Origin: Rhodothermales bacterium
Lineage (GTDB): Bacteria; Bacteroidota; Rhodothermia; Rhodothermales; Bin80
Direction of reading: 5' to 3'
Assembly (NCBI GenBank): GCA_965220935.1
Contig: OZ244857.1
Location: 1,672,929-1,736,928 of the forward strand
Length of the DNA: 64,000 nt
Of this stretch, positions 20,880 through 33,893 are shown one piece after another. Positions within the stretch are counted from its first letter, which is position 1, and every line of letters starts with the position of its first letter. Below the pieces are notes generated by a model that saw nothing but the letters and a program-made list of their open reading frames with translations, was not told the origin of the DNA and ran no database searches. A program made the translations under genes and the position numbers.

Positions 20880-23516
20880 TTAACTGGAATCTAAAATTTC
20901 AAAAAATGCTTCCTTAAACTCCTCCTTATTATGCCCCATTTGATTGAAAAAGGGCAATCCGCGCACAATGTACTCTTCTACCTGAAACACTTCTTGAACT
21001 TTATCAGTCCATTGTATATTCGCCATAAAATCTTGTTTCCATAAATCATTGGATATGAGATGTTCTCCTTTGGGCTCAATAAATAACTGGAGAATATTTC
21101 CAACTTCTTCACCTTTTTTCCGAAGAAATAAGATAAAGTCAGGCTCAAATCCCTCCCCATTTTCAAAAGAGTAAAGTTTTACGGCCTTTTCATTTCTCAG
21201 AAGAAAAAAATCATCATATCGTTTTTTGAGGTTTTCGGCCTCGTAATACAAATACTCAATGAAGCGCTTTTCCTCGCTTGTTCCATAACTCGTATCATAA
21301 GCGTGCCAATCTTCATCAATTGGATTAATAAGGTTTAGGTTCGGTAAATTGCTCTCCTTCCAGCTAAGCCCTTTTTCACCTTGAATTTTAATTTTCAGTG
21401 TCTTATCAACAAAGCACTGGCTGATTTTCTTACGCGTGAACTCAGTTGTTCCGACGAATTCTGCCCTACGACGCTTCAAACTAATCTCAATTTGATTAAG
21501 GGCATATTGTACAATTTTAACACTCTGACGAGCAGTTATTCGTTCAAGATCTTCACGATTTCCTCGAACCTGAATATTCACATTTCTTAGGAATAATTCC
21601 GAAGTTTGAAACTCTAGTGTACTTCGGAGGTGTGGAAAATATCTTTGTAGGTTAACGAAGTGAAAAAAATCATTGGAGTCCATGGCAAAATCCAAAATAG
21701 ATCTGTCAAATTCTGATACATTCAAGTTTTTAGAAACCACTGTAGAATTATTGCCACATTGACTTCCCCCTTCGTCATTGTGATTAAAGGCTGATATTTC
21801 GGTGACTTGTCCTGTCATCAGAGTGTGTGGAAATACAAAGTTTGTTTCTATTTCGTAGGATCTCAATTGGCCAATACTTTCAGGTAAGAACTTGCTTCTC
21901 CGATCATTGACCCACACATAACCGATCTTATAAAACTGTGATTGCTTAAAACTGTCTTTCAGACGTAGATGTACTGTACGGCTTTTTTCATCATGCATTC
22001 CGATTTTTTTAAGTGCTCGCTTAAGCTCATCAATGTATCTTGGATTATGGGAGCAGTGATAATGTAGCTCCTCCAAAATTCTTAGATTGTGTTCTATATT
22101 TCTATCGTACTTACGCTTTTCTGGTGTGGCTTCTGGTAAATCGGGATCCATAAACGGGAAATATCTGGCACCCCGCCCTATGAGTTGCGCCTCTGACATA
22201 GTTGTTGCGCCAATCCTTTCGCCTCTACTATCTCTAGTATTATATAGGCGCACAATGTCAAATAAATTTAGAACGTCCCATCCCTCATCCAACTTATTGA
22301 CTGCAAAAATTACTCGAAGATCATTAGATTTGTCTTCCAGATTGTTTAAGTCTATCTGAAGATCCTCAAGATCTATAAGTCTGTTTACATTTGCGGTCTT
22401 CCCGTCTCCAAAATCCCCTTTTAACTCAAGTGCAAAATCATCAAATTCTATTCCGCATTCGTCAATGATATATTCAAAAGCTCCTGATAAGGTCATGTCG
22501 TTCACTGATGAATTACGAATTTGTCTAAGATTATCACCAGACAATCCATTGACCATGGATACAAATAAAGTCTCATTTTCGGCCGATTGGGCAATAGTTT
22601 TGGACTTCATTAGAATCACAGGCTTACAAAATATTCCATGTGCTTCTGCTACTTTTCGCCTGTATTGACTTAACACCATGGCTTGTAGCATTCGATCATG
22701 CGGAGTTAAATCGGCCTGCCTTAATTCAATATCTTTTGAATATCCATCCGCCCTAAAATGCTTTAATTGGTAATCATAAATGACCTTGTCGTAATACTTT
22801 ATCTTAATTTCACTGTGATTGAGATCAGCAGTAGCAGTAAACTCCAATAGAATATTTTTAGAGTGTTGATCAAAAATAGATGTGACGGTATTTTCCCAGC
22901 TTTTGAGCCCAGTAACCTCGGTAGATGTTAAATTGTTTCTTGTGTGTGCATTTAGATGGTGAGCCTCATCCGAGATCATAACTATTTGGTGTTCCTGAAA
23001 ATCTTCCATTGTTACAGCATCTTCTCTGGGATTGAGCATTCTTGTGTGTAACCCTTGAATTGTAGTAAAATGAATATTGATCGTTTGAAGATTCGCTGCC
23101 TCAAAGGTATCAACTGCTTGAACTTCCACTTGCTTACCATCAATGCGTATGTTCTGACTGAATAAATATTTCAGCGATTGTGAGTTAAGAAAATTATCTC
23201 TGGTTTTTTCAATTATCTGATTTGAGTTTACAAAAAACAGGAAATTCCTATAGCCCCGACGATAAAGATCAAGTATTAAAGCAGCCATCAATACTGTTTT
23301 ACCGCTTCCTGTTGCCATGTGAAACAGCAAATGAGGTCTTGGTGATCTGTGGTTATACTTATCAATGTAGTAAAACCACCGTTCAATTGCTTCAACTTGA
23401 TAAGGACGAAGATTAATTCTTTGGGCAAGATTGTCAGTGATATTGGATGGTAAGTCTTTTTTTAAGATATCCTGCTCTGACAATGTGTCAAATGTTTCAA
23501 GAAGACTCCGTTTCAT
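20880..23516 (-). CDS. res: Type III restriction enzyme Res subunit (SF2 helicase + PD-(D/E)xK nuclease)
   Basis: 878 aa with motif I FHMATGSGKT, motif II MISDEAHHL and motif VI QLIGRGARY. The C-terminal nuclease-like segment is GFEPDFILF...LQLFIEPKGEHL. The start overlaps the upstream mod stop (ATGA at 23513..23516). Confidence 0.85.
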   Translation of the reverse strand: MKRSLLETFDTLSEQDILKKDLPSNITDNLAQRINLRPYQVEAIERWFYYIDKYNHRSPRPHLLFHMATGSGKTVLMAALILDLYRRGYRNFLFFVNSNQIIEKTRDNFLNSQSLKYLFSQNIRIDGKQVEVQAVDTFEAANLQTINIHFTTIQGLHTRMLNPREDAVTMEDFQEHQIVMISDEAHHLNAHTRNNLTSTEVTGLKSWENTVTSIFDQHSKNILLEFTATADLNHSEIKIKYYDKVIYDYQLKHFRADGYSKDIELRQADLTPHDRMLQAMVLSQYRRKVAEAHGIFCKPVILMKSKTIAQSAENETLFVSMVNGLSGDNLRQIRNSSVNDMTLSGAFEYIIDECGIEFDDFALELKGDFGDGKTANVNRLIDLEDLQIDLNNLEDKSNDLRVIFAVNKLDEGWDVLNLFDIVRLYNTRDSRGERIGATTMSEAQLIGRGARYFPFMDPDLPEATPEKRKYDRNIEHNLRILEELHYHCSHNPRYIDELKRALKKIGMHDEKSRTVHLRLKDSFKQSQFYKIGYVWVNDRRSKFLPESIGQLRSYEIETNFVFPHTLMTGQVTEISAFNHNDEGGSQCGNNSTVVSKNLNVSEFDRSILDFAMDSNDFFHFVNLQRYFPHLRSTLEFQTSELFLRNVNIQVRGNREDLERITARQSVKIVQYALNQIEISLKRRRAEFVGTTEFTRKKISQCFVDKTLKIKIQGEKGLSWKESNLPNLNLINPIDEDWHAYDTSYGTSEEKRFIEYLYYEAENLKKRYDDFFLLRNEKAVKLYSFENGEGFEPDFILFLRKKGEEVGNILQLFIEPKGEHLISNDLWKQDFMANIQWTDKVQEVFQVEEYIVRGLPFFNQMGHNKEEFKEAFFEILDSS

Positions 23517-24782
23517 AGATCTATTTTGTAGAATTTTCTGGTAATTTCTACATTTTCATCAGAGATTGAAAACCACTCATCGCCGAGTGAATGGATGTTA
23601 ACATATAAATGATTGGCATCCATACAATCTTTCAGCGCTCGCTTCGCATCATCCATGGAAAGATTCGTAAATTTTTCTGATGCAAAAGATTTCATATTGA
23701 CATCATAGCGAAGAAAACCAGTCTTTTGTATTTCGTTTTTGATGCAAAGTAGAGTTTTGAAGTCAGTAGCTGCGTCAATTTTCTCCATAAATTGTGAGTT
23801 AGAGTCTGCAAGTTGAGCATAAATAAATGAACCACCTCCTGCCCAGTCAACTACCTTAGAAACTCCACCCTGTTCGCCTTCAATGACCTTTTTTAGGCGG
23901 ATCTTGATTAAGTCATCAACATAGTTCATCTGTTCAATTGCAATCCATTGACGCCCCATCTTGTGAGCAACTGCTGGCGTGGTGCCTGACCCTGCAAAGA
24001 AATCCATCACAATATCATTCGGATTTGTTGATGCGCGGATGATTAGTTCTGCAAAGGCTTCTGGCTTTGGATAGGCAAAATCCACTTTCCCAAATATCTT
24101 ATTTCGTTCTTTGGTTGCTTTCTGATTCATGTATTGATTATCTGCACCTTCAAGGCTTCCAAGTAAATTATATTCGCTTTTGATTTCACTTAAATAGCGC
24201 TTAAAAATAAAGCCTCTCTGATTTTCAGAATGCTTTTTTCTAAATTTGATTTTTCCAGATTTAATGTAATCTCGAAGTCTCCCTCCCGAAAATAGCCACT
24301 GGCGATTTTCGGGAGGGAGATCAACTTTCCCTGTATATGGGTTCTTAATTGGAAAATAATAATCACCCGACCGAGCACTTGGATTATCACTTGCCCATGG
24401 TCCATTGGGATCATTGTCGGGGTTCTTGTAATTCTCAAATGTCTTTTTTTTACCAACTAATTCAATCTTGGACTTATCCTTTGCATAGATGAGTGTATTT
24501 TCGTGCTGAATATTAAATCCAGTTCTCGCATCATTAGTTGTTGACTTTGTCTTCCTTATTAAATCTCCCACGAAGTTCTCTCTTCTGAATATCTCATCCA
24601 TCAACACTTTGAGATAGGCCTGTTCATTATCGTCAATATGGATAACTATCAACCCATCATCTGTAAGAAACTGTTTGGCCACTTCAAGTCGATTACGCAT
24701 GAACGTGAGCCACGAACTGTGATTGAATCTGTCATTATATCTGAACCCATCATTCCCCGTATTGTAAGGGGGATCAATGTAA

Positions 24783-25391
24783 ATCAATTTCACTTTCCCC
24801 GCATAGCGAGTTTTCAGTGAATGGAGAGCTAAGAGATTATTACCCTTAATCAGCAAATTGTCATCTTCACGCACCTCACCTACTGCACTGGAAAATGCCC
24901 CCCCCCCCCCCCCATTTTTTCTGGATTGACACTCCAGCGCTCCCATCCTGTCAACACCTTTGGCTCAAACAATCTTGTAATGTCATCTGGAGACAACACA
25001 GTGTTCCAGAATATCTCTTTTCTCCCCCGATCTTCCTTTGTCATACCACCCTCCAAAACACAGTCCTTGTAAGGCCATGTAAGGACTACATCGCGTGACT
25101 GACTTAAATGATTCCCTCGCCCATCTACCAGACCAATACGATTTTTGAATGCCGTGTAACTGTTTGGGAGAAAGGTCTTGTTTGACACAAAACTTTGGAA
25201 TTTCACCTTGTCAAAAACCAGGGTTTTACCAACTTTGACAAAAAAGTGTGATTTGATTTTTTCGGATTGAAGTAGCAGTTCAAGAAGCCTTTTATCCAAA
25301 CGCAAGGCCGCTTCAATGACAACATTTCGGAGAATCTCTCCATCAGAAATATACTCAGACTCAGACTCTAATAACTTGATTAAATCGTTAA
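24783..25391. repeat. Direct repeat copy A: 5' module of mod copy 1 (609 nt including C16)
   Basis: By-eye alignment to 26830..27433 shows no differences apart from homopolymer length. The encoded N-terminal ~175 aa are identical in the two ORF translations. Confidence 0.85.
24898..24913. repeat. C16 homopolymer (G16 on the mod coding strand)
   Basis: Counted directly: ...gaaaatg ccc / cccccccccc / ccc atttttt. Tracts of G11, G14 or G17 would be in frame; G16 is not. Confidence 0.95.
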
Positions 25392-25562
25392 AGAGATTTT
25401 GCATGTTTGATGCTTATGACCGTGATTGTTCGGTTTGAAAGTTTATAAATTGATAGATCAATTAATGTTACCGTTAAATAGTATTCCAAATAAGACATAC
25501 GGGAGATCATCTCAAAGTCAAACCCTCAAAACCAGAAATATACGAACTTCTAAGTATAATCA

Positions 25563-27618: not shown

Positions 27619-28848
27619 CTATTCATGGGGGGACGGTTTGGCCCAGATGGTTAAAACCAACTCCTCACCATATAAATTATACACGGGGGTTTGACCTGAA
27701 TGACTTTTGCATATGCTTAATATAGTCCTAACTCCCTCACCACGAGATTCAAGGATCACTTTACCAGTAGATGAGGCTTTTATTCGTGATAAAAAATTGA
27801 CCAATAGCTGATTTCTAGTGAATACGCGATACGCCATTAGCTCAATGGTAATTGCATTGGGTAAGTCACCAGGGCTATAAATCTCAATCCGGTCTGAAAA
27901 TAAAAACATCCGAATCTTAGATCCACGGATTGAGTAATCTCTGTGCGCCACAGCATTGACGATTGCCTCACGAATTGCGCGGAGGTCATACTGAGGATAC
28001 TCAATTCGTCCAGCAGGCTTACGAGCAGGTTTCAGCATAAATCGATCTACAAACTTAATCGCACTCTCAATCTGAGTATCCACAGTGCTCTCAATACGCT
28101 CACTATGGACTAAGTCATCCGAAGTAAATTGAATACTTTTATACACGGCTGCTTCAATATATGCGTTCTGCATGTAGTTCTGAGGTGACGTACCGAATAT
28201 CAAAAGTCCTGTAACAGTTGTGCGAAATAAATCATCATCAATTCTTGAAATTACTTTGGTGTTTCTTAGTAAATCAACCCATGAAAGAGTCTTGGAGTGC
28301 CCTCCAAAATAAGATTCTAATTTACTTTGATCAAGATCATCTATTGTGGTACCTGGAACTAATTGTTCATCAAAAATAAATGTGCGCTCCCTTTCTTGGT
28401 ATAGCCGGGGAAGCATAGGCCCTTTGAGCAATTGTTTAGTTGATCCAACGCGCACATAATGACGACCACTGCTGGTAATATGAACATATAATCCTTTTGG
28501 AATTTTGACTAATAAAATTGTAGCATTTTCACCGTTCGGCATGGGAAGATACTCCCACTGGAGTGAGGGATTTAATGGCGGATCGCAGCTATTTGTAGCT
28601 ACATTGATGATCCAGTGCTCAATATCCTTGAGACGATCTTTCGGAAACCCTCTAACAATTCCATCGTCATCTACCCCTAGGAAGATCGTACCTCCGTTAG
28701 AATTGGCAAAAGCAACCATTTCCGAAGCAATTGCATCCTCGTTTGGTGATCGCACGCCATGCTTTGCCATAACTACTTGTTTAAATTCAGAGTGAGAACC
28801 CTCTCCAAGAGATAACTGCTTAAAAATTTGATTTGTTGTGTAGTGCAT
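27619..28848 (-). CDS. AlbA_2 (Schlafen-like) DNA-binding domain + HATPase_c_4-like ATP-binding protein (COG2865-type putative regulator)
   Basis: 409 aa. The N-terminal SEFKQ...EMVAFANSNGGTIFLGVDDDGIVRGF is the AlbA_2 signature. The C-terminal IREAIVNAVAHRDYSIRGSKIRMFLFSDRIEIYSPGDLP...TRNQLL is the RecG-C-terminal-like HATPase_c_4 signature. Confidence 0.7.
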   Translation of the reverse strand: MHYTTNQIFKQLSLGEGSHSEFKQVVMAKHGVRSPNEDAIASEMVAFANSNGGTIFLGVDDDGIVRGFPKDRLKDIEHWIINVATNSCDPPLNPSLQWEYLPMPNGENATILLVKIPKGLYVHITSSGRHYVRVGSTKQLLKGPMLPRLYQERERTFIFDEQLVPGTTIDDLDQSKLESYFGGHSKTLSWVDLLRNTKVISRIDDDLFRTTVTGLLIFGTSPQNYMQNAYIEAAVYKSIQFTSDDLVHSERIESTVDTQIESAIKFVDRFMLKPARKPAGRIEYPQYDLRAIREAIVNAVAHRDYSIRGSKIRMFLFSDRIEIYSPGDLPNAITIELMAYRVFTRNQLLVNFLSRIKASSTGKVILESRGEGVRTILSICKSHSGQTPVYNLYGEELVLTIWAKPSPHE

Positions 28849-28854
28849 AGTTTT

Positions 28855-31839
28855 CTAAAATCCGTATCGTTTCCTCCGAAGACGAAATGCTTCTTCGCTA
28901 CCTTCTATGATGGCTGCAACAAGTTCCTTTATTTGTGATTTGTCAATACTTCCTGCACCCATCACTTTCCCTACTTTATTATCTGAACCCAATGCAACGA
29001 TGAGTTCAGCATCTCCATTCACTGGAACATTAGCATTATGGGTGGCAATTAGAATTTGGCGCTTGAATTTTTGTTGACGTAGAAGATCAACGATGATGTT
29101 GTAAACATATTGATTGTCAAGATCATCTTCTGGCTGGTCAATGAATATGGGTTGATTTCGTGCCGAAAGTAAAAGACTGATGATGGCCGTGTTCTTCTCA
29201 CCTACCGATCCAGTTTCAATTGTCTTAAACGTTCCATCCTTCGCGCGAACCTGCGCATGAACTAAATCCTCTGGCAAATAAGACTCCATTTCGTCTATTC
29301 TTGCATGGTCAAATTTTAGCAGTGCATTGAAAAAATATTTGGTGAGTGCTGTCTCCCCAACAAGAGACGCAACCTGTGAATCATCTGCAACTGTAGATTT
29401 GCCTTTATCTTTTGATGAGTTGATGTCTGTTCTAAGTGCTTGAAGAAGTGTTCTTAGGTTATATGGCACTTCGCTATCAGCAGAGAAGACATAATCACAT
29501 AAGACAAGCCAGTCACATTCTTGAAGTCCAGTGCCCCCAAACCATTAATCTCGTCTATTTTCAAAATCATTCCGATCACGAAAAGCATGAATCTGGATGC
29601 GAACATCTGCATCAATATCTTCAAGAGCATGAGCAATTTTCATACGGGCATTGTATCGATCGTGATGAATCAGTTGCAGTTCAATCTGAACATTCTTAAT
29701 TTTTTCTTCCACCTGGTTTAATTCGTCTTCAATATTTTTGATTGAACCCTTTTCATGTTCTAATCTTGCACGTTCTTGAAGGAGTTTTTCGTGATTAATT
29801 AAGTGTCCCTCTATATTCTCCGTTTCTTTAATTAGAGCATTGTATTCTAATTTGATTTCGTCGTAGTTCGGTTTCCAGTTTTCTAATTGCTCTGAACGAA
29901 TTTTTTCACTCAGTATCTTAATGGCCTTGACCTGATCATTAAGTGCTAGAAGTATCTTATCTCGGGTACTACGAATCTGATCTGTAATTGATTGTGACCA
30001 GAGTTCCTTCGGGGATGATTCAAGCTTTTCTTCACCTAAGTCCTCAACAGGTTCAATTGAACTCAATAAAATATTACTAACATTATTTATCTCTCTTAAT
30101 TGATCATCTATCCACCTACGTTCTTGCTCCACTTCATTGAAACGAGTAAATACCTGCTTATGCTTCTCTTTTTCAAAGAATGCAATCTTGTCTTGAACTT
30201 TCTGTAACGCAGTTAACACCGCGGGTGCGTTATTTTTTGATTCAACCAAACTGGTACGTAATGATTGACATTTACGAAGTGCAGAGGTAAGCCTTTTTTT
30301 ATCCTCATTGAAGTTGCGACGAGCACTGCTGTCCATTAATGAGTCAATCTCTCTACGCTGGGACACTGGATCATGGGCAATCTCAGCAATCTGTCGCTGA
30401 GATAAAATTCGAGGTGCAATCAAAGTTCGAACATCTAATGGAACTGATTCAGAATTATCTTTGTCTGAATGAAGTGTAGTGTTAATTCTATTTGAACATC
30501 TGATGACGCGATATATCCTTCCAGCTATTACAATTTCTACAATGATTTGATAGTCAGTAATCAGAGTTCCTCTGCTTTGACCAAAATCTTGTTGACTCTT
30601 CATTGAGAGAATAGATCGGATAGAATCATATACATGGCTATTCCTGTCCGATAGGTCAGCATCCCGATCACGGTCTAATACATGCCGTAAATACTCAATT
30701 ACGGTAGATTTTCCACTCCCACGCCCACCTATAGTGTTGTGAGGCAGGGACTAAGTGGAATTGTAATTTCTTCAAAGAAGTCTGTATTACGGATTATAAT
30801 TTGTTTAATGTATGGATAATCTGACCTTGGGGGGCCATGATCCATGCGGCGAAGACGTGACTCTGGATCAAGTAGAGCTATAGAATTCCTTCAACATCAG
30901 GAACCTCCATTTTAAGCCACGAAAATCGCGAGCCGATACACTCGTATTTCCTCGGATCTGAGCACTCAATTAAAGACCAATGTTTCTGATTCCGATAGCG
31001 TTGTTGTTCATCAGTCGAGAGATTCTTCCAATCATATCCTCGACGGGCCACATCCCATTGAAGTAGTAAATCTTGAAACCCCTCTGGCAATTCAAAGAAT
31101 GATTTGGATGTCTGAAACCCATCCCAATCCTTTCGTGCGATTGCATATTGTCTCAAATGGCCTTTCATTTGATCAATTATATCTCCAGTATTCTTAGAAC
31201 GTAGACCCGTTTCTTTAGCGACTCCCCGGTTGCTATCGGCATGAGCAGGAAGTAGAACTAATTGCATGTCACGTTCACCCGATTCTGGACGACAGTACTC
31301 AAACAAGCGGTCTATAAATGTGCTAATTGATTCGCCATTTGTCAACGGAATACCGGTTTGAGGATGGAAGCGTTCTTTATTTCCAAACATATGCCGGATT
31401 GTACTATTGATATTCTCAGTAGACGTTTCTGATGAGAATATCACTAAAAAATGAATAGGACGCTCCCCACCAATACTAAATTCAACCCTGGAAGAATCAC
31501 GGGTATATGAAACCCTTGATTTAGTAATTTCTCAGATAGTTGATCAAAATGAGGTTTTAGATAACTATACCCGTCAATACTATTATGATCGGTGATGGCT
31601 ACGAGGTCTAATCCTTTCCCATTTGCTCCGTTTTGACAGGCATTTATGAATTTTGACGCGATCTTGTATAGATCCTGTGACTTACTTTTCTTAAAATTTT
31701 CAATCGCCAGTTTCGTATTTTCACCAAATTTTTTCTCATGATCAAATGGAGTATGCACATGTAAGTCACAACGGAGCCATTGGGCGCCTTGACCAATATT
31801 ATTTTTAGGTTCCGATGTTGACATTCCAATAAAATTCAC
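28855..31839 (-). pseudogene. Decayed gene for a ~990-aa PHP-domain + SMC/RecF-like ABC ATPase (candidate single-protein defence ATPase)
   Basis: Pieces identified: PHP N-terminus WLRCDLHVHTPFDHE...LVAITDHNSIDGY...VILPG|VEFSIGGERPIHFLVIF; LLDPESRLR...; Walker A IGGRGSGKSTVIEYL (read by hand at ~30690..30735); a coiled-coil segment 29545..30603; and a C-terminal Walker B/H-loop PIFIDQPEDDLD...ILIATHNANVP. Lesions: frameshifts near 31485..31492, 30880..30890 and 30740..30760, plus an in-frame TAA at 29545..29547. Confidence 0.75.
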
Positions 31840-31884
31840 GGAGCTGCTAATGATAATCTACACAATGTAAATCAGATCCCCCAT

Positions 31885-32132
31885 TTATAAGCGAGTAAAT
31901 GTATAGAAAAATTTGAAAGTGCTTTCGCCTTTTCTTTGAACCGCTCTACGAACAAAATCAATTGCCTGAGGTATATCCAATTTCTCAAAGAATTCTAGCC
32001 AGTTTACAGTAGGTATTCTTCTTTGATCCTTAACCTAAATGCACTTGATATAGGTAGTCAATCTTTCCCAATAGATGATGGCTTGCAGTAGCGAGAGACG
32101 TGATGTTCGTCTTCAATCTTCAGATTAGACAT
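31885..32132 (-). pseudogene. Small decayed gene (~82 codons), translationally coupled to the upstream 113-aa gene
   Basis: Hand translation gives MSNLKIEDEHHVSRYCKPSSIGKD*LPISSAFRLRIKEEYL (in-frame TGA at 32058..32060). After a frameshift near 32000..32015 it continues ..TVNWLEFFEKLDIPQAIDFVRRAVQRKGESTFKFFYTFTRL*. The ATG overlaps the upstream stop (TAATG at 32130..32134). Confidence 0.45.
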
Positions 32133-32473
32133 TAAGGAATTGCTCTTATTATTGGTTTAATCATTTGCATGGCAGTCTCTTTGTTAGCTGAACCCTGTAA
32201 TCTAAGTGGAGGCTCTCGATTTTCCAGAGTTCCTGGAAATTCCACACTTCCGTCAGGCATGAAATTGACTAGTGCACAAGCAGGGGGAGAATTCCATTCA
32301 ATTTGAAGTGTTCCGTCAGGACATATGCCTATCTGAGGATAAGGTAAAATCCTTCCAAAATGTGAGAAAAACAAAGCTATTTGCATCAGAGAGGCAAACT
32401 GCATAGCAGGATTATCATCTATTGTAATTTCATTTTGATACCTTAAACGGTTAGCAATTTTCCCATATTCCAT
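32132..32473 (-). CDS. Hypothetical protein (113 aa), first gene of the decayed minus-strand cluster
   Basis: Intact ORF with no motif I can name. It is co-oriented with, and overlaps by 1 nt, the next (decayed) gene. Confidence 0.45.
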   Translation of the reverse strand: MEYGKIANRLRYQNEITIDDNPAMQFASLMQIALFFSHFGRILPYPQIGICPDGTLQIEWNSPPACALVNFMPDGSVEFPGTLENREPPLRLQGSANKETAMQMIKPIIRAIP

Positions 32474-32606
32474 CTTATAAAAATCTCTTCCTTTTCATGA
32501 GCATTTTGAATCTGATAAGAAAGCTGCCTGGGCTTGAAAGATATAATAGAAAGGAAGGTTCCCTCAGGAGTGTTATTTTTCGAGGTAACCAAATTTTCAT
32601 TTTATT

Positions 32607-33692
32607 ATGTCTTCTACATCTCATTGTTCACCTGTTCGCTACTACGTTGGATTAGACGTTCATCGTGACACAATCTCGGCGTATGTTTACGATGCGACTG
32701 AGAAGCGTTACTGTGATGAGCAGATGCTCACAAGCCGAAGAGTCTCGCTCGGTTTGTGGAATCTACGCGTTCAAAGTATGGGCCTTTCCGCTGTTGTTAT
32801 GAGGCATCCTTTTCGGGGACTGTGCTCTATGACACATTGACCGAACACGGCGTGGATTGCGCCATCATTGCTTGATTCCCAAGCGCTCAGGCGATCGAAT
32901 CAAAACCGATCAGCGCGATGCCAGGAATTTGTCCAAGTATTTTGGATCTGGGCTTTTGACTGAATGTTTCGTCCTGGACGAAGAGCTCCGAGCCGTGCGA
33001 GGACTTTTACGCAGTCGTGAGGCACTGATAAAAAGTCTTCACCAATCCAAAATGCGCGTGATTCATTTTTTGCATGCGCACGGGCACTGTTATACAACAG
33101 GAAGCTACTGGACAAAAAAGTTTAAGACTTGGATCAATCAGATTGAGTTAGAGCGTTCCCATGACGAGTTTGTACTACGCGGGCACTTGAATGATATTGA
33201 TTATCATCAGGGACGCATCTAAGAACAGCAAGTCAAAGCAGCATCCGAGTCCGAAAAGTTTCAGCAAGCAGTTCAGATTCTGCAAGGCTTCCGAGGCATT
33301 GGACTGATCTCGGCCATGCAGTTGGTTTGTGAGATTGGAGACTTTCGGCGGTTTGAGAGTCCGACGGCACTGATGGCGTATCTTGGATTAGTTCCATCTC
33401 CTCAGGAAACACCATCCGCACGGGTTCAATCACCAAAACTGGTAACACTCACGCACGAAAGGTCTTGGTCAGCGCAGCATGGAAATACATCTACGCGATC
33501 AGTGTTGCACTTCAAGAGCGGCAAAAACACTGCAGTGCTAAAGTCATCGCCATTACCCAGAAAGCACAAACACGCTTATACAAACGTTACAACGCAAACC
33601 TCCGAAAGTCGCGGTGGATCGTGAACTGGTTGGTTTTCTCTGGGAGGCGTTGCAACTTCCTGTTGAAACAGCCTAAACAACCTATACGATAA
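32607..33692 (+). pseudogene. IS110-family DEDD transposase, inactivated
   Basis: Pieces identified: YYVGLDVHRDTISAYVYD; (frame b) FRCCYEASFSGTVLYDTLTEHGVDCAIIA; LIPKRSGDRIKTDQRDARNL...; LQGFRGIGLISAMQLVCEIGDFRRFESPTALMAYLGLVPS; and ITKTGNTHARKVLVSAAWKY-type C-terminus (33465..33692). At least 3 frameshifts (near 32715..32725, 32865..32875 and 33420..33465) and an in-frame TAA at 33220..33222. Confidence 0.8.
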
Positions 33693-33893
33693 CTCGTCAT
33701 GGAGAAAGAGTCCAAAGCAACGATGGAGAGCCCAAGTCCATCCTTTTCGGTAGCGATTATCGCGAGCCCGAGTTTCAAGATCTTGGCAGCTCCGACGTAT
33801 TCAAATATTGAGCATTATGGCTTTTGCCTAGCATGCGGACACCAGATTGATAGACCGTCGACATTGCTATAAGACTCTTTCTCCATGACGAGT
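33693..33893. repeat. Perfect 21-bp inverted repeat (arms 33693..33713 and 33873..33893) immediately 3' of the IS110-type ORF
   Basis: actcgtcatggagaaagagtc and gactctttctccatgacgagt are exact reverse complements separated by 159 nt. Confidence 0.9.

What the first reader, a model, noticed from the sequence alone, without database searches (positions are those of the whole stretch)
28855..31839. A PHP-domain + SMC-like ABC ATPase (~990 aa) defence-type gene inactivated by three frameshifts and one in-frame stop
Reassembling four ORFs and one unlisted frame gives a single architecture. It begins with an N-terminal PHP phosphoesterase (CDLHVHTPFDHE, ITDHNSIDGY, PG-VEFS..HFLVIF), then ..ALLDPESRLR.., Walker A (GGRGSGKST), a ~350-aa coiled coil, and Walker B/H-loop (FIDQPEDDLD, IATHNANV). 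From memory, and unverified, PHP+ATPase single-gene anti-phage candidates have been reported (I recall the name Ppl from the P2/P4 hotspot survey and an NCBI family label TrlF). Here the gene carries lesions at ~31488, ~30885, ~30750 and a TAA at 29545..29547, none in long homopolymers. The neighbouring housekeeping genes are all intact, which argues for true pseudogenisation rather than sequencing noise.
Basis: partly seen in the sequence, partly recalled or inferred. Interest (0 to 1): 0.6.

Follow-up and report, generated by a model that had tools for sequence, protein, structure and literature searches.

The report
Decayed trlF defence gene, trlG intact
This is a genuinely dead copy of trlF, a Ppl-like nuclease/ATPase gene that is probably anti-phage, sitting next to its still-intact Schlafen-type partner trlG in a defence island; it is an ordinary decay of an already named gene pair.

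Summary
On the minus strand, 31824..28855 carries five collinear pieces. Joined, they give a 992-aa protein that matches NCBIfam NF045780 (TrlF family AAA-like ATPase) end to end at 441 bits (cut-off 350). It aligns without gaps to about 120 intact 990-1000-aa homologues; the best is 77% identical.

The gene is broken by three 1-nt deletions (~31487, ~30881, ~30733) and a TAA (29545-29547). Contigs from seven public runs in four studies show no difference wherever they cover it, so the lesions are not assembly errors. An eighth run from a fifth study lacks the third frameshift only, which suggests stepwise decay.

The intact 409-aa AlbA_2/HATPase_c_4 gene 6 nt downstream (27619-28848) is the conserved partner, present in 21 of 26 full-length loci. 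The pair is the published trlF-trlG "temperature restriction locus" of Photorhabdus. Related pairs sit inside BREX-1 and type I R-M operons.

It fails the curated Ppl cut-off (224 vs 1000 bits), so it is Ppl-like, not Ppl.

Verdict: a young pseudogene in a known family. Interest is low to moderate.

The parts
28855..31824 (-). trlF pseudogene (PHP domain plus Rad50/SMC-like ABC ATPase); 992 aa when read through
   Evidence: NF045780 TrlF_fam_ATP at 441.5 bits (cut-off 350), profile positions 2-944 of 944. Collinear with intact 990-1000-aa homologues.
31486..31824 (-). Piece A (113 aa): first half of the PHP domain, with the HxH and DH motifs
   Evidence: H24, D28, D79 and H80 are invariant in 65 sequences.
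31486..31487 (-). Lesion 1: 1-nt deletion in a GGG run (frame 0 -> 2)
   Evidence: Identical in the contigs of X1, X2, X4 and X5. Not covered in X8.
30881..31486 (-). Piece B (202 aa): rest of the PHP domain and the linker
   Evidence: E116, H126, H196 and D291 are invariant.
30879..30883 (-). Lesion 2: 1-nt deletion (frame 2 -> 1) in the codons for the invariant Arg316 and the next residue
   Evidence: Also present in X8.
30732..30878 (-). Piece C (49 aa): first strands of the ATPase head, just before Walker A
30732..30733 (-). Lesion 3: 1-nt deletion (frame 1 -> 0), immediately before the Walker A motif
   Evidence: Run X8 has one extra letter exactly here and is otherwise identical, so this is probably the youngest lesion.
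29548..30732 (-). Piece D (395 aa): Walker A (GGRGSGKST), Q-loop and coiled coil
   Evidence: The fold of the relative matches SMC/Rad50/JetC heads with a coiled coil.
30005..30015 (-). In-frame 9-nt (3-codon) deletion in the coiled-coil region, relative to L001
   Evidence: Probably benign.
29545..29547 (-). In-frame TAA nonsense codon, where 40 of 64 homologues have Gln
   Evidence: Present in all runs laid, including X8.
28855..29544 (-). Piece E (229 aa plus stop): ABC signature, Walker B, D-loop and H-loop
   Evidence: Pfam AAA_21 and SMC_N hits. Carries R773C, S881N and G892R at positions invariant in 64 of 64 homologues.
27619..28848 (-). trlG: intact 409-aa Schlafen (AlbA_2) plus HATPase_c_4 partner, 6 nt downstream of trlF
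   Evidence: Pfam PF04326 at 70 bits and PF13749 at 64 bits. An ortholog lies directly downstream of TrlF in 21 of 26 full-length loci. The Ex4ExK motif E16..E21.K23 is intact, but the clade-invariant D17 is G here.

Best explanation
The stretch is a recently and truly inactivated trlF gene. trlF is the large first gene of the two-gene trlF-trlG cassette (27619-31833), which lies in a defence island next to a type III R-M system.

The intact ancestor encoded a ~993-aa protein with a PHP metal-dependent phosphoesterase/exonuclease domain followed by a Rad50/SMC-like ABC ATPase head split by a ~350-aa coiled coil. By analogy with its characterised relative Ppl, it most likely dimerised through the ATPase heads, recognised DNA ends or overhangs made during phage infection, and degraded DNA with the PHP domain under nucleotide control. 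The downstream TrlG, a Schlafen-type RNase fold fused to a GHKL-like ATP-binding domain, is the likely growth-arrest effector. Related pairs are embedded in BREX-1 and type I R-M operons, which fits an anti-phage role.

In this genome trlF cannot make a working protein. Translation from the ATG at 31824 ends after 113 native residues. Walker A has no start codon of its own. The Walker B/H-loop part lies behind a TAA. Decay was stepwise, because one public run still lacks the third frameshift.

Shown here: the lesions, their reality in independent data, family membership, the fold of the relative, the conserved pairing and the defence-island contexts.

Inferred: the Ppl-like mechanism, the anti-phage role, and any TrlF-TrlG interaction.
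For: - Family: TrlF_fam_ATP at 441.5 bits (cut-off 350), full length. P0001, the intact relative, scores 479.7 bits.
- Collinearity: about 120 intact homologues of 975-1111 aa, most 990-1000 aa. The alignments need no gap at two junctions and one residue at the third.
- Lesions: three 1-nt gaps against L001 and a TAA at a mostly-Gln column.
- Reality: contigs with no differing letters in X1, X2 and X4 at depths 66, 1564 and 12.5, in X5 over 28014-32566 and in X3 and X6 over 30500-31150.
- Stepwise decay: X8 has one extra letter at 30732 only.
- Relaxed constraint: 15 deviations at columns >=97% conserved, against a mean of 2. These include R773C, S881N and G892R at columns invariant in 64 of 64 homologues.
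- Fold: N-terminal model with pLDDT 85 and pTM 0.85 matches PHP proteins (3o0f, RNase AM, PolC, Pol III alpha) at Foldseek probability 1.0. The C-terminal part matches MukB, Smc, JetC, Rad50 and RecN.
- Pairing: the partner lies directly downstream, gap -1 to 18 nt, in 21 of 26 loci across many phyla. DNA homology to L001 spans exactly 27619-31833.
- Named precedent: the trlR-trlF-trlG operon of Photorhabdus, with TrlG = AlbA_2 + HATPase_c_4 (PMC7554251).
- Defence contexts: pglX-TrlF-TrlG-pglZ-brxL, hsdR-TrlF-TrlG-hsdS-AAA-hsdM, and solo TrlF homologues between a PglX-like methylase and BrxL and next to DISARM-type genes.
- Ppl mechanism. Schlafen tRNase defence and the Ex4(E/D)xK motif.
Against: - No experiment shows that any TrlF-TrlG pair defends against phage. 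The only phenotype in the held literature is temperature restriction in Photorhabdus, where no trlF mutants were recovered.
- The Pfam PHP model gives no hit, and Foldseek TM-scores for the PHP match are low (0.33-0.38).
- The runs are Logan contigs, not raw reads, so minority intact alleles would be invisible. One of the runs may be the sample the window was assembled from.
- The X8 variant rests on a single 4.4x contig.
Confidence: 0.9

Rival explanations
1. The frameshifts and the stop are sequencing or assembly errors, and the organism carries an intact trlF.
For: All three frameshifts are single-base deletions, the typical error type of long-read assemblies. Together they restore the frame.
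Against: Contigs assembled independently from seven runs in four studies show no differing letters wherever they cover the gene, at word depths up to about 2000. None of the sites lies in a long homopolymer. The nonsense codon is a substitution, not an indel. There are extra missense changes at positions invariant in 64 of 64 homologues. The one run that differs (X8) differs at a single lesion only and keeps the others.
Confidence: 0.03
2. The gene is still used, either through programmed frameshifting and read-through or as separately translated fragments that assemble into a working split enzyme.
For: The catalytic motifs are all still present. The fragments 29545-30603 and 28855-29469 are long ORFs with start codons.
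Against: There is no slippery motif at the three sites. Four recoding events in one gene would be unprecedented. All listed relatives of this gene are single uninterrupted proteins. Walker A lies in a piece with no start codon, and the 352-aa ORF begins 43 residues after it. In X8 one lesion is absent, as expected for mutation and not for a conserved recoding signal.
Confidence: 0.02
3. The whole cassette is dead, not only trlF. On this view trlG is a still-open but functionally impaired or unselected ORF that has simply not yet been hit.
For: The window's TrlG has 7 deviations at columns >=95% conserved. One is D17G inside the otherwise invariant E-D-x3-E-F-K catalytic segment. trlG is 29% of the cassette, so four hits all landing in trlF has a probability of about 0.25 by chance (my calculation from the lengths).
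Against: The catalytic E16, E21 and K23 are intact. The ORF is full length, with the same 6-nt spacing as in L001. In L028 and L032 trlG also survives a broken trlF. In Photorhabdus the growth-arrest phenotype maps to trlG alone, so TrlG may act without TrlF.
Confidence: 0.35

Closest known systems
TRL (temperature restriction locus) operon trlR-trlF-trlG of Photorhabdus laumondii (Hapeshi et al. 2020, Front Microbiol 11:548800; PMC7554251); NCBIfam NF045780 'TrlF family AAA-like ATPase'
   Same: The gene order is the same: a large PHP ('histidinol phosphatase')/ATPase gene followed directly by an AlbA_2 + HATPase_c_4 gene. The window protein passes the TrlF curated cut-off over the full length. 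The pair is horizontally spread and patchily distributed.
   Different: trlF is a pseudogene here. No trlR-like small regulator is conserved upstream in this clade. Sequence identity to proteobacterial members is low: TrlF about 25% to plasmid copies and TrlG 29% to the V. parahaemolyticus copy.
Ppl, the single-gene anti-phage system of E. coli (handled as 'Gao_ppl'; mechanism: Xu et al., Mol Cell 2026, as cited in PMC13648713 and PMC12904381)
   Same: Same architecture: a PHP exonuclease domain plus a Rad50-like ABC ATPase. There is significant profile similarity (NF042955 E=2.5e-66, PADLOC Ppl E=2e-45).
   Different: It scores far below the curated Ppl cut-off (224 vs 1000 bits). It is encoded with a Schlafen-type partner rather than alone. 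No activity data exist for TrlF.
Prokaryotic Schlafen nucleases of the pSlfn-HisKinase class (Taboada et al. 2025, bioRxiv 10.1101/2025.07.24.666596) and the Schlafen-HisK-wHTH genes linked to BREX (PMC12839542)
   Same: The partner TrlG has AlbA_2/Schlafen plus HATPase_c_4 domains and the Ex4(E/D)xK motif. That fusion is the commonest pSlfn architecture. The same gene type is embedded in BREX.
   Different: The two pSlfn proteins shown to defend in that preprint have other fusions (DUF262, Ig-like). A TrlF partner is not mentioned there.
Spaf_1101 family AAA-like ATPase (NCBIfam NF045781)
   Same: A sister family with related ATPase regions (198 bits).
   Different: Below its cut-off of 475 bits. 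The best of the three matched stretches covers only the C-terminal ATPase part (residues 862-990).

Membership tests
TrlF family (NCBIfam NF045780) | Whole-protein score at or above the curated cut-off (350 bits), with end-to-end coverage of the profile | tested here: met
   441.5 bits over profile positions 2-944 of 944, for the read-through with X at the four lesions. The intact relative P0001 scores 479.7 bits.
TrlF family (NCBIfam NF045780) | N-terminal PHP-type metal-dependent phosphoesterase fold with its His/Asp/Glu ligands | tested here: met
   H22, H24, D28, D79, H80, E116, H126, H196 and D291 are conserved. The model of the relative's residues 1-338 (pLDDT 85) matches PHP structures first, at E=2e-7 and probability 1.0, although TM is only 0.33-0.38. 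The Pfam PHP model itself gives no hit.
TrlF family (NCBIfam NF045780) | Rad50/SMC-like ABC ATPase head (Walker A, Q-loop, signature, Walker B, H-loop) split by a coiled coil | tested here: met
   All motifs are present. Foldseek matches MukB, Smc, JetC, Rad50 and RecN at E down to 1e-11. Pfam SMC_N, AAA_21 and AAA_29 hits are weak.
TrlF family (NCBIfam NF045780) | An uninterrupted reading frame, that is, a functional member | tested here: not met
   Three 1-nt deletions and a TAA, confirmed in independent runs. It is a pseudogene of the family.
TRL operon (trlR-trlF-trlG) | trlG (AlbA_2 + HATPase_c_4) immediately downstream of trlF on the same strand | tested here: met
   27619-28848, 6 nt downstream, with PF04326 and PF13749. 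The same layout is seen in 21 of 26 loci and in annotated plasmids.
TRL operon (trlR-trlF-trlG) | A small transcription-factor gene trlR upstream | tested here: not met
   The 113-aa upstream ORF has no Pfam or NCBIfam hit and no tblastn hit in any related locus. DNA homology to L001 stops at 31833. No conserved small upstream ORF exists in this clade.
TRL operon (trlR-trlF-trlG) | Temperature-dependent growth restriction that depends on trlG | not testable with these tools
   Phenotype known only from Photorhabdus.
Ppl (NCBIfam NF042955; PADLOC PDLC02208) | Score at or above the curated equivalog cut-off (1000 bits) | tested here: not met
   224.3 bits. P0001 scores 234.4 bits. The PADLOC Ppl model gives 153 bits, and its best stretch covers only residues 830-989.
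Ppl (NCBIfam NF042955; PADLOC PDLC02208) | Works as a single gene | tested here: not met
   This clade has a conserved, tightly spaced downstream partner.
Ppl (NCBIfam NF042955; PADLOC PDLC02208) | 3'-5' ssDNA exonuclease activity gated by NTPs and 3'-OH ends | not testable with these tools
   Known from the literature only.
Prokaryotic Schlafen nucleases (pSlfn), for the partner gene | Schlafen/AlbA_2 domain with the catalytic Ex4(E/D)xK motif | tested here: met
   PF04326 at E=3e-19. The segment E16-G-S-H-S-E21-F-K23 is present. Motif definition.
Prokaryotic Schlafen nucleases (pSlfn), for the partner gene | tRNA cleavage and phage protection | not testable with these tools
The HisKinase-fused class was not among the two shown to protect.

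The most novel reading that the evidence does not exclude
Natural trlF-null / trlG-intact genotypes recur. This window carries point lesions. L028 carries a recent IS insertion, with a TrlG that differs by only 2 aa from the TrlG of an intact cassette. L032 carries internal deletions.

This would mean two things. First, TrlF is not an antitoxin-like brake that TrlG needs. Second, the Ppl-like nuclease/ATPase is the costly, preferentially shed half of the pair, for example through self-DNA-end autoimmunity as reported for Ppl when RecBCD is impaired. TrlG would then persist as an autonomous Schlafen-type effector.

If so, it constrains the still unknown wiring of a module found across many bacterial phyla.
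Probability: 0.25. Interest if true: 0.45.

Novelty: new member of a known kind. Interest (0 to 1): 0.25.

Why it matters
The finding mainly matters for annotation. The four or five ORF fragments at 28855-31839 should be called one trlF pseudogene. The neighbouring 'RecG-like/ATP-binding' gene should be called trlG. The island should be read as type III R-M plus a half-decayed TrlFG module.

It adds a small piece of natural-history evidence on a widespread module that has not been tested against phage in any paper I found. Broken trlF can coexist with intact trlG in at least three lineages. One of these decays can be followed lesion by lesion in public data. That argues against models in which TrlF is required to keep TrlG harmless. 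The numbers are too small to show preferential loss.

Tried and rejected
I could not look for other trlF copies in the same genome or for syntenic loci in close relatives.
- Pfam gave no PHP hit.
- A PDB sequence search with the family profile found only an SMC head. The partner gave only a marginal hit to 3lmm. No Ppl or TrlF structure appears in that PDB copy.
- The Foldseek search of the full-length model returned only the ATPase part. A separate N-terminal model was needed.
There was no homology in any related locus, so I rejected it as part of the cassette.
- dN/dS was not attempted. At 82% DNA and 77% protein identity to the nearest relative, synonymous sites are likely saturated. I counted deviations at conserved columns instead.
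- I tested whether trlF is lost preferentially. With trlF making up 71% of the cassette length, three of three single-gene decays in trlF has p of about 0.36, which is not significant.
- Literature searches for 'TrlF' first returned only laser-fluorescence (TRLFS) papers. Gao 2020 and Krishnan 2020 are not held.
- No RNA run holds the stretch, so expression is unknown.
Full report
**1. What is in the sequence**

Listing ORFs and translating the minus strand of 28800-31950 in three frames shows five collinear coding pieces:

| Piece | Coordinates | Length | Content |
|---|---|---|---|
| A | 31824-31486 | 113 aa | DLHVHT, TDHN |
| B | 31486-30881 | 202 aa | VEFS, IHFLV, PAHAD |
| C | 30878-30732 | 49 aa | ALLDPESRLRR |
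| D | 30732-29548 | 395 aa | GGRGSGKST, then a long helical region |
| E | 29544-28858 | 229 aa | FIDQPEDDLD, ATHNAN |

A TAA lies at 29545-29547 between pieces D and E. The frame path is 0->2->1->0.

A global DNA alignment with the intact closest relative (L001, 82% identical) shows that the window lacks exactly one base at ~31487, ~30881 and ~30733. It also has one in-frame 9-nt gap at ~30011. The sites are not long homopolymers; the longest run is GGG. The TAA sits in a column where 40 of 64 homologues have Gln. The start is better placed at the ATG at 31824, which aligns with the relatives' initiator.

**2. Is it more than chance, and is it real?**

The joined 992-aa protein, with X at each lesion, gives:
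- NCBIfam NF045780 (TrlF family AAA-like ATPase): E=1e-131, 441.5 bits against a curated cut-off of 350, over profile positions 2-944 of 944.
- About 120 listed intact homologues of 975-1111 aa, most 990-1000 aa; the best is 77% identical with 100% coverage.
- Alignments that need no gap at two junctions and one residue at the third.

Public runs were then checked.
- Logan contigs of X1, X2 and X4 (three studies; word depths 66, 1564 and 12.5) match the window over 28700-32000 with no differing letters and no gaps.
- X5 matches over 28014-32566. X3 and X6 were laid on 30500-31150 only and match there.
- X7, a fourth study, matches wherever it has coverage, but has no depth at 30809-30919 and so does not cover lesion 2.
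- X8, a fifth study from 2021 at 4.4x, is identical over lesion 2 and the TAA. It has one extra letter exactly at 30732, which is lesion 3.

An error that landed by chance on precisely that junction is very unlikely, so lesion 3 is probably the youngest event. Contigs hide minority alleles, and one run may be the assembly's own source. These caveats remain.

**3. Signs of relaxed constraint**

Among 65 aligned sequences, the window copy has 15 deviations at columns that are >=97% conserved. The mean for the others is 2, and its sister P0001 has 8, some of them shared.

R773C, S881N (beside the ABC signature) and G892R hit positions invariant in 64 of 64 homologues. All catalytic motifs survive. 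This is a young pseudogene.

**4. Fold**

- Full length (P0001 with 70 sequences): pLDDT 73.6. Residues ~340-993 match MukB, Smc, JetC, Rad50 and RecN heads with coiled coil, at E down to 1e-11.
- Residues 1-338 (24 sequences): pLDDT 85.3, pTM 0.85. The top eight matches are all PHP-domain or PHP-family structures: the BAD_1165 phosphoesterase, RNase AM, PolC, a PHP-type amidohydrolase and Pol III alpha. Probability is 1.0 and E is 2e-7 to 7e-4, but TM-scores are only 0.26-0.36.
- Pfam's PHP model is silent. NCBIfam gives only a weak CehA/McbA hit.

**5. It is half of a two-gene cassette**

The intact 409-aa gene 6 nt downstream (27619-28848) has Schlafen AlbA_2 (70 bits) and HATPase_c_4 (64 bits) domains.
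- On the contigs that carry P0001, a 409-aa ortholog (85% identical) follows at the same 6-nt distance.
- Of 26 distinct loci with a full-length TrlF homologue and enough flank, 21 have this partner directly downstream, with a gap of -1 to 18 nt. They come from Rhodothermales, Acidobacteriota, Planctomycetota, Myxococcota, Bacillota, Spirochaetes and others.
- DNA homology between the window and L001 spans exactly 27619-31833. This delimits the mobile unit.
- The upstream small ORFs are not part of it.

**6. What is known about the pair**

'TrlF' comes from the temperature restriction locus trlR-trlF-trlG of Photorhabdus laumondii.
- There, trlF is annotated as a histidinol phosphatase, and trlG (mis-annotated recG) has AlbA_2 plus HATPase_c_4.
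- Loss of trlG lets the bacterium grow at 36 C.
- No trlF mutants were recovered, and phage is not discussed (PMC7554251).

Annotated records show the pair inside other defence operons:
- pglX-TrlF-TrlG-pglZ-brxL on a V. parahaemolyticus plasmid.
- hsdR-TrlF-TrlG-hsdS-AAA-hsdM on an IncC plasmid.
- A plain pair on a B. thailandensis plasmid.

Solo TrlF genes are also common. Many sit on conjugative plasmids. One lies between a PglX-like methylase and BrxL, and another lies in a DISARM-like operon.

TrlF's relative Ppl is described as a single-gene system. It is a PHP 3'-5' ssDNA exonuclease with a Rad50-like NTPase, and it responds to 3'-OH overhangs and NTP depletion.

Prokaryotic Schlafens are tRNase effectors with an Ex4(E/D)xK motif. 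A histidine-kinase-like fusion is their commonest form. Such genes accompany BREX in more than 1000 taxa.

The window's TrlG keeps E16, E21 and K23. It has G in place of the clade-invariant D17, and six other deviations at conserved columns.

**7. Membership**

- TrlF family: met on score, coverage, PHP fold and ATPase motifs. The intact-ORF criterion is failed, so this is a pseudogene of the family.
- Ppl: not met. It scores 224 bits against a cut-off of 1000 and is not single-gene.

It is 'Ppl-like' in architecture and probably in mechanism, but it is not Ppl.

**8. Other decays**

- In the Rhodothermales MAG L028, the orthologous trlF is split by a ~2-kb IS with 17-nt inverted repeats and a DDE_Tnp_1_4 transposase. 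Apart from the IS, its trlF differs from L001's at only about 10 of 2982 nt, and its TrlG differs from L001's by 2 aa.
- In L032, trlF is reduced to 106- and 300-aa remnants in front of an intact 416-aa partner.
- In L053, both genes are reduced to a 138-aa fusion.

So trlF-null / trlG-intact states recur. However, trlF is 71% of the target, so three of three such decays has p of about 0.36. This does not demonstrate preferential loss.

**9. Verdict**

It is an ordinary, recent, stepwise pseudogenisation of a known gene in a defence island. In the same island a neighbouring IS110-like element and some small ORFs are also decayed.

The mechanistic description of the ancestral system is inference from Ppl and Schlafen work. 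In the literature I could search, no TrlFG pair has been tested against phage.

Noticed in passing
window 32537-33800: The IS110-like remnant next to the cassette is a high-copy repeat in the runs, with summed contig depth about 40-100 times that of the flanking single-copy DNA. A sharp boundary lies at ~32537/32538, where loose ends pile up. The other copies differ by many substitutions and indels.
   Followed up: no
L028 3994-6015: A ~2-kb IS splits the orthologous trlF of a Rhodothermales MAG (OZ241742.1). It has 17-nt terminal inverted repeats, and its DDE_Tnp_1_4 transposase is itself split into 268- and 279-aa ORFs. Five surplus bases at the junction suggest a target-site duplication.
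   Followed up: partly
L032 2110-4522; L053 5980-6396: Two further decayed cassettes. In L032 (Terriglobia), trlF is reduced to two short ORFs before an intact trlG. In L053 (Bryobacterales), a 138-aa ORF fuses the first ~40 residues of TrlF to the last ~70 of TrlG, directly behind a 1140-aa gene.
   Followed up: partly
window 28798-28800 (codon 17 of trlG): TrlG has Gly where all 23 clade relatives have Asp, inside the E-D-x3-E-F-K Schlafen catalytic segment. A Photorhabdus temperature-tolerant mutant (Ser16Asn) probably maps to the same short segment, judged from the V. parahaemolyticus homologue (E14-N-S16-G-V-E19-F-K21). The window allele may be a hypomorph.
   Followed up: partly
L068 (V. 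parahaemolyticus pLH80-1) and L066 (IncC pNDM102337): TrlF-TrlG pairs are inserted inside a BREX-1 operon (between pglX and pglZ) and inside a type I R-M operon (between hsdR and hsdS). In L014 a solo TrlF sits between a PglX-like methylase and an unassigned 786-aa gene that is followed by BrxL.
   Followed up: partly
window 23513-25404: One of the two tandem type III mod genes is split into 174- and 477-aa ORFs. Earlier notes treat it as a poly-G phase switch. Not every broken gene in this island is therefore a dead gene.
   Followed up: no
runs X1-X6: The same 4.4-5.2-kb contig occurs at very high depth (up to about 2000x) in runs filed under four different organism labels and three studies. 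This suggests that the bacterium is a recurrent companion or contaminant of several cultures.
   Followed up: no
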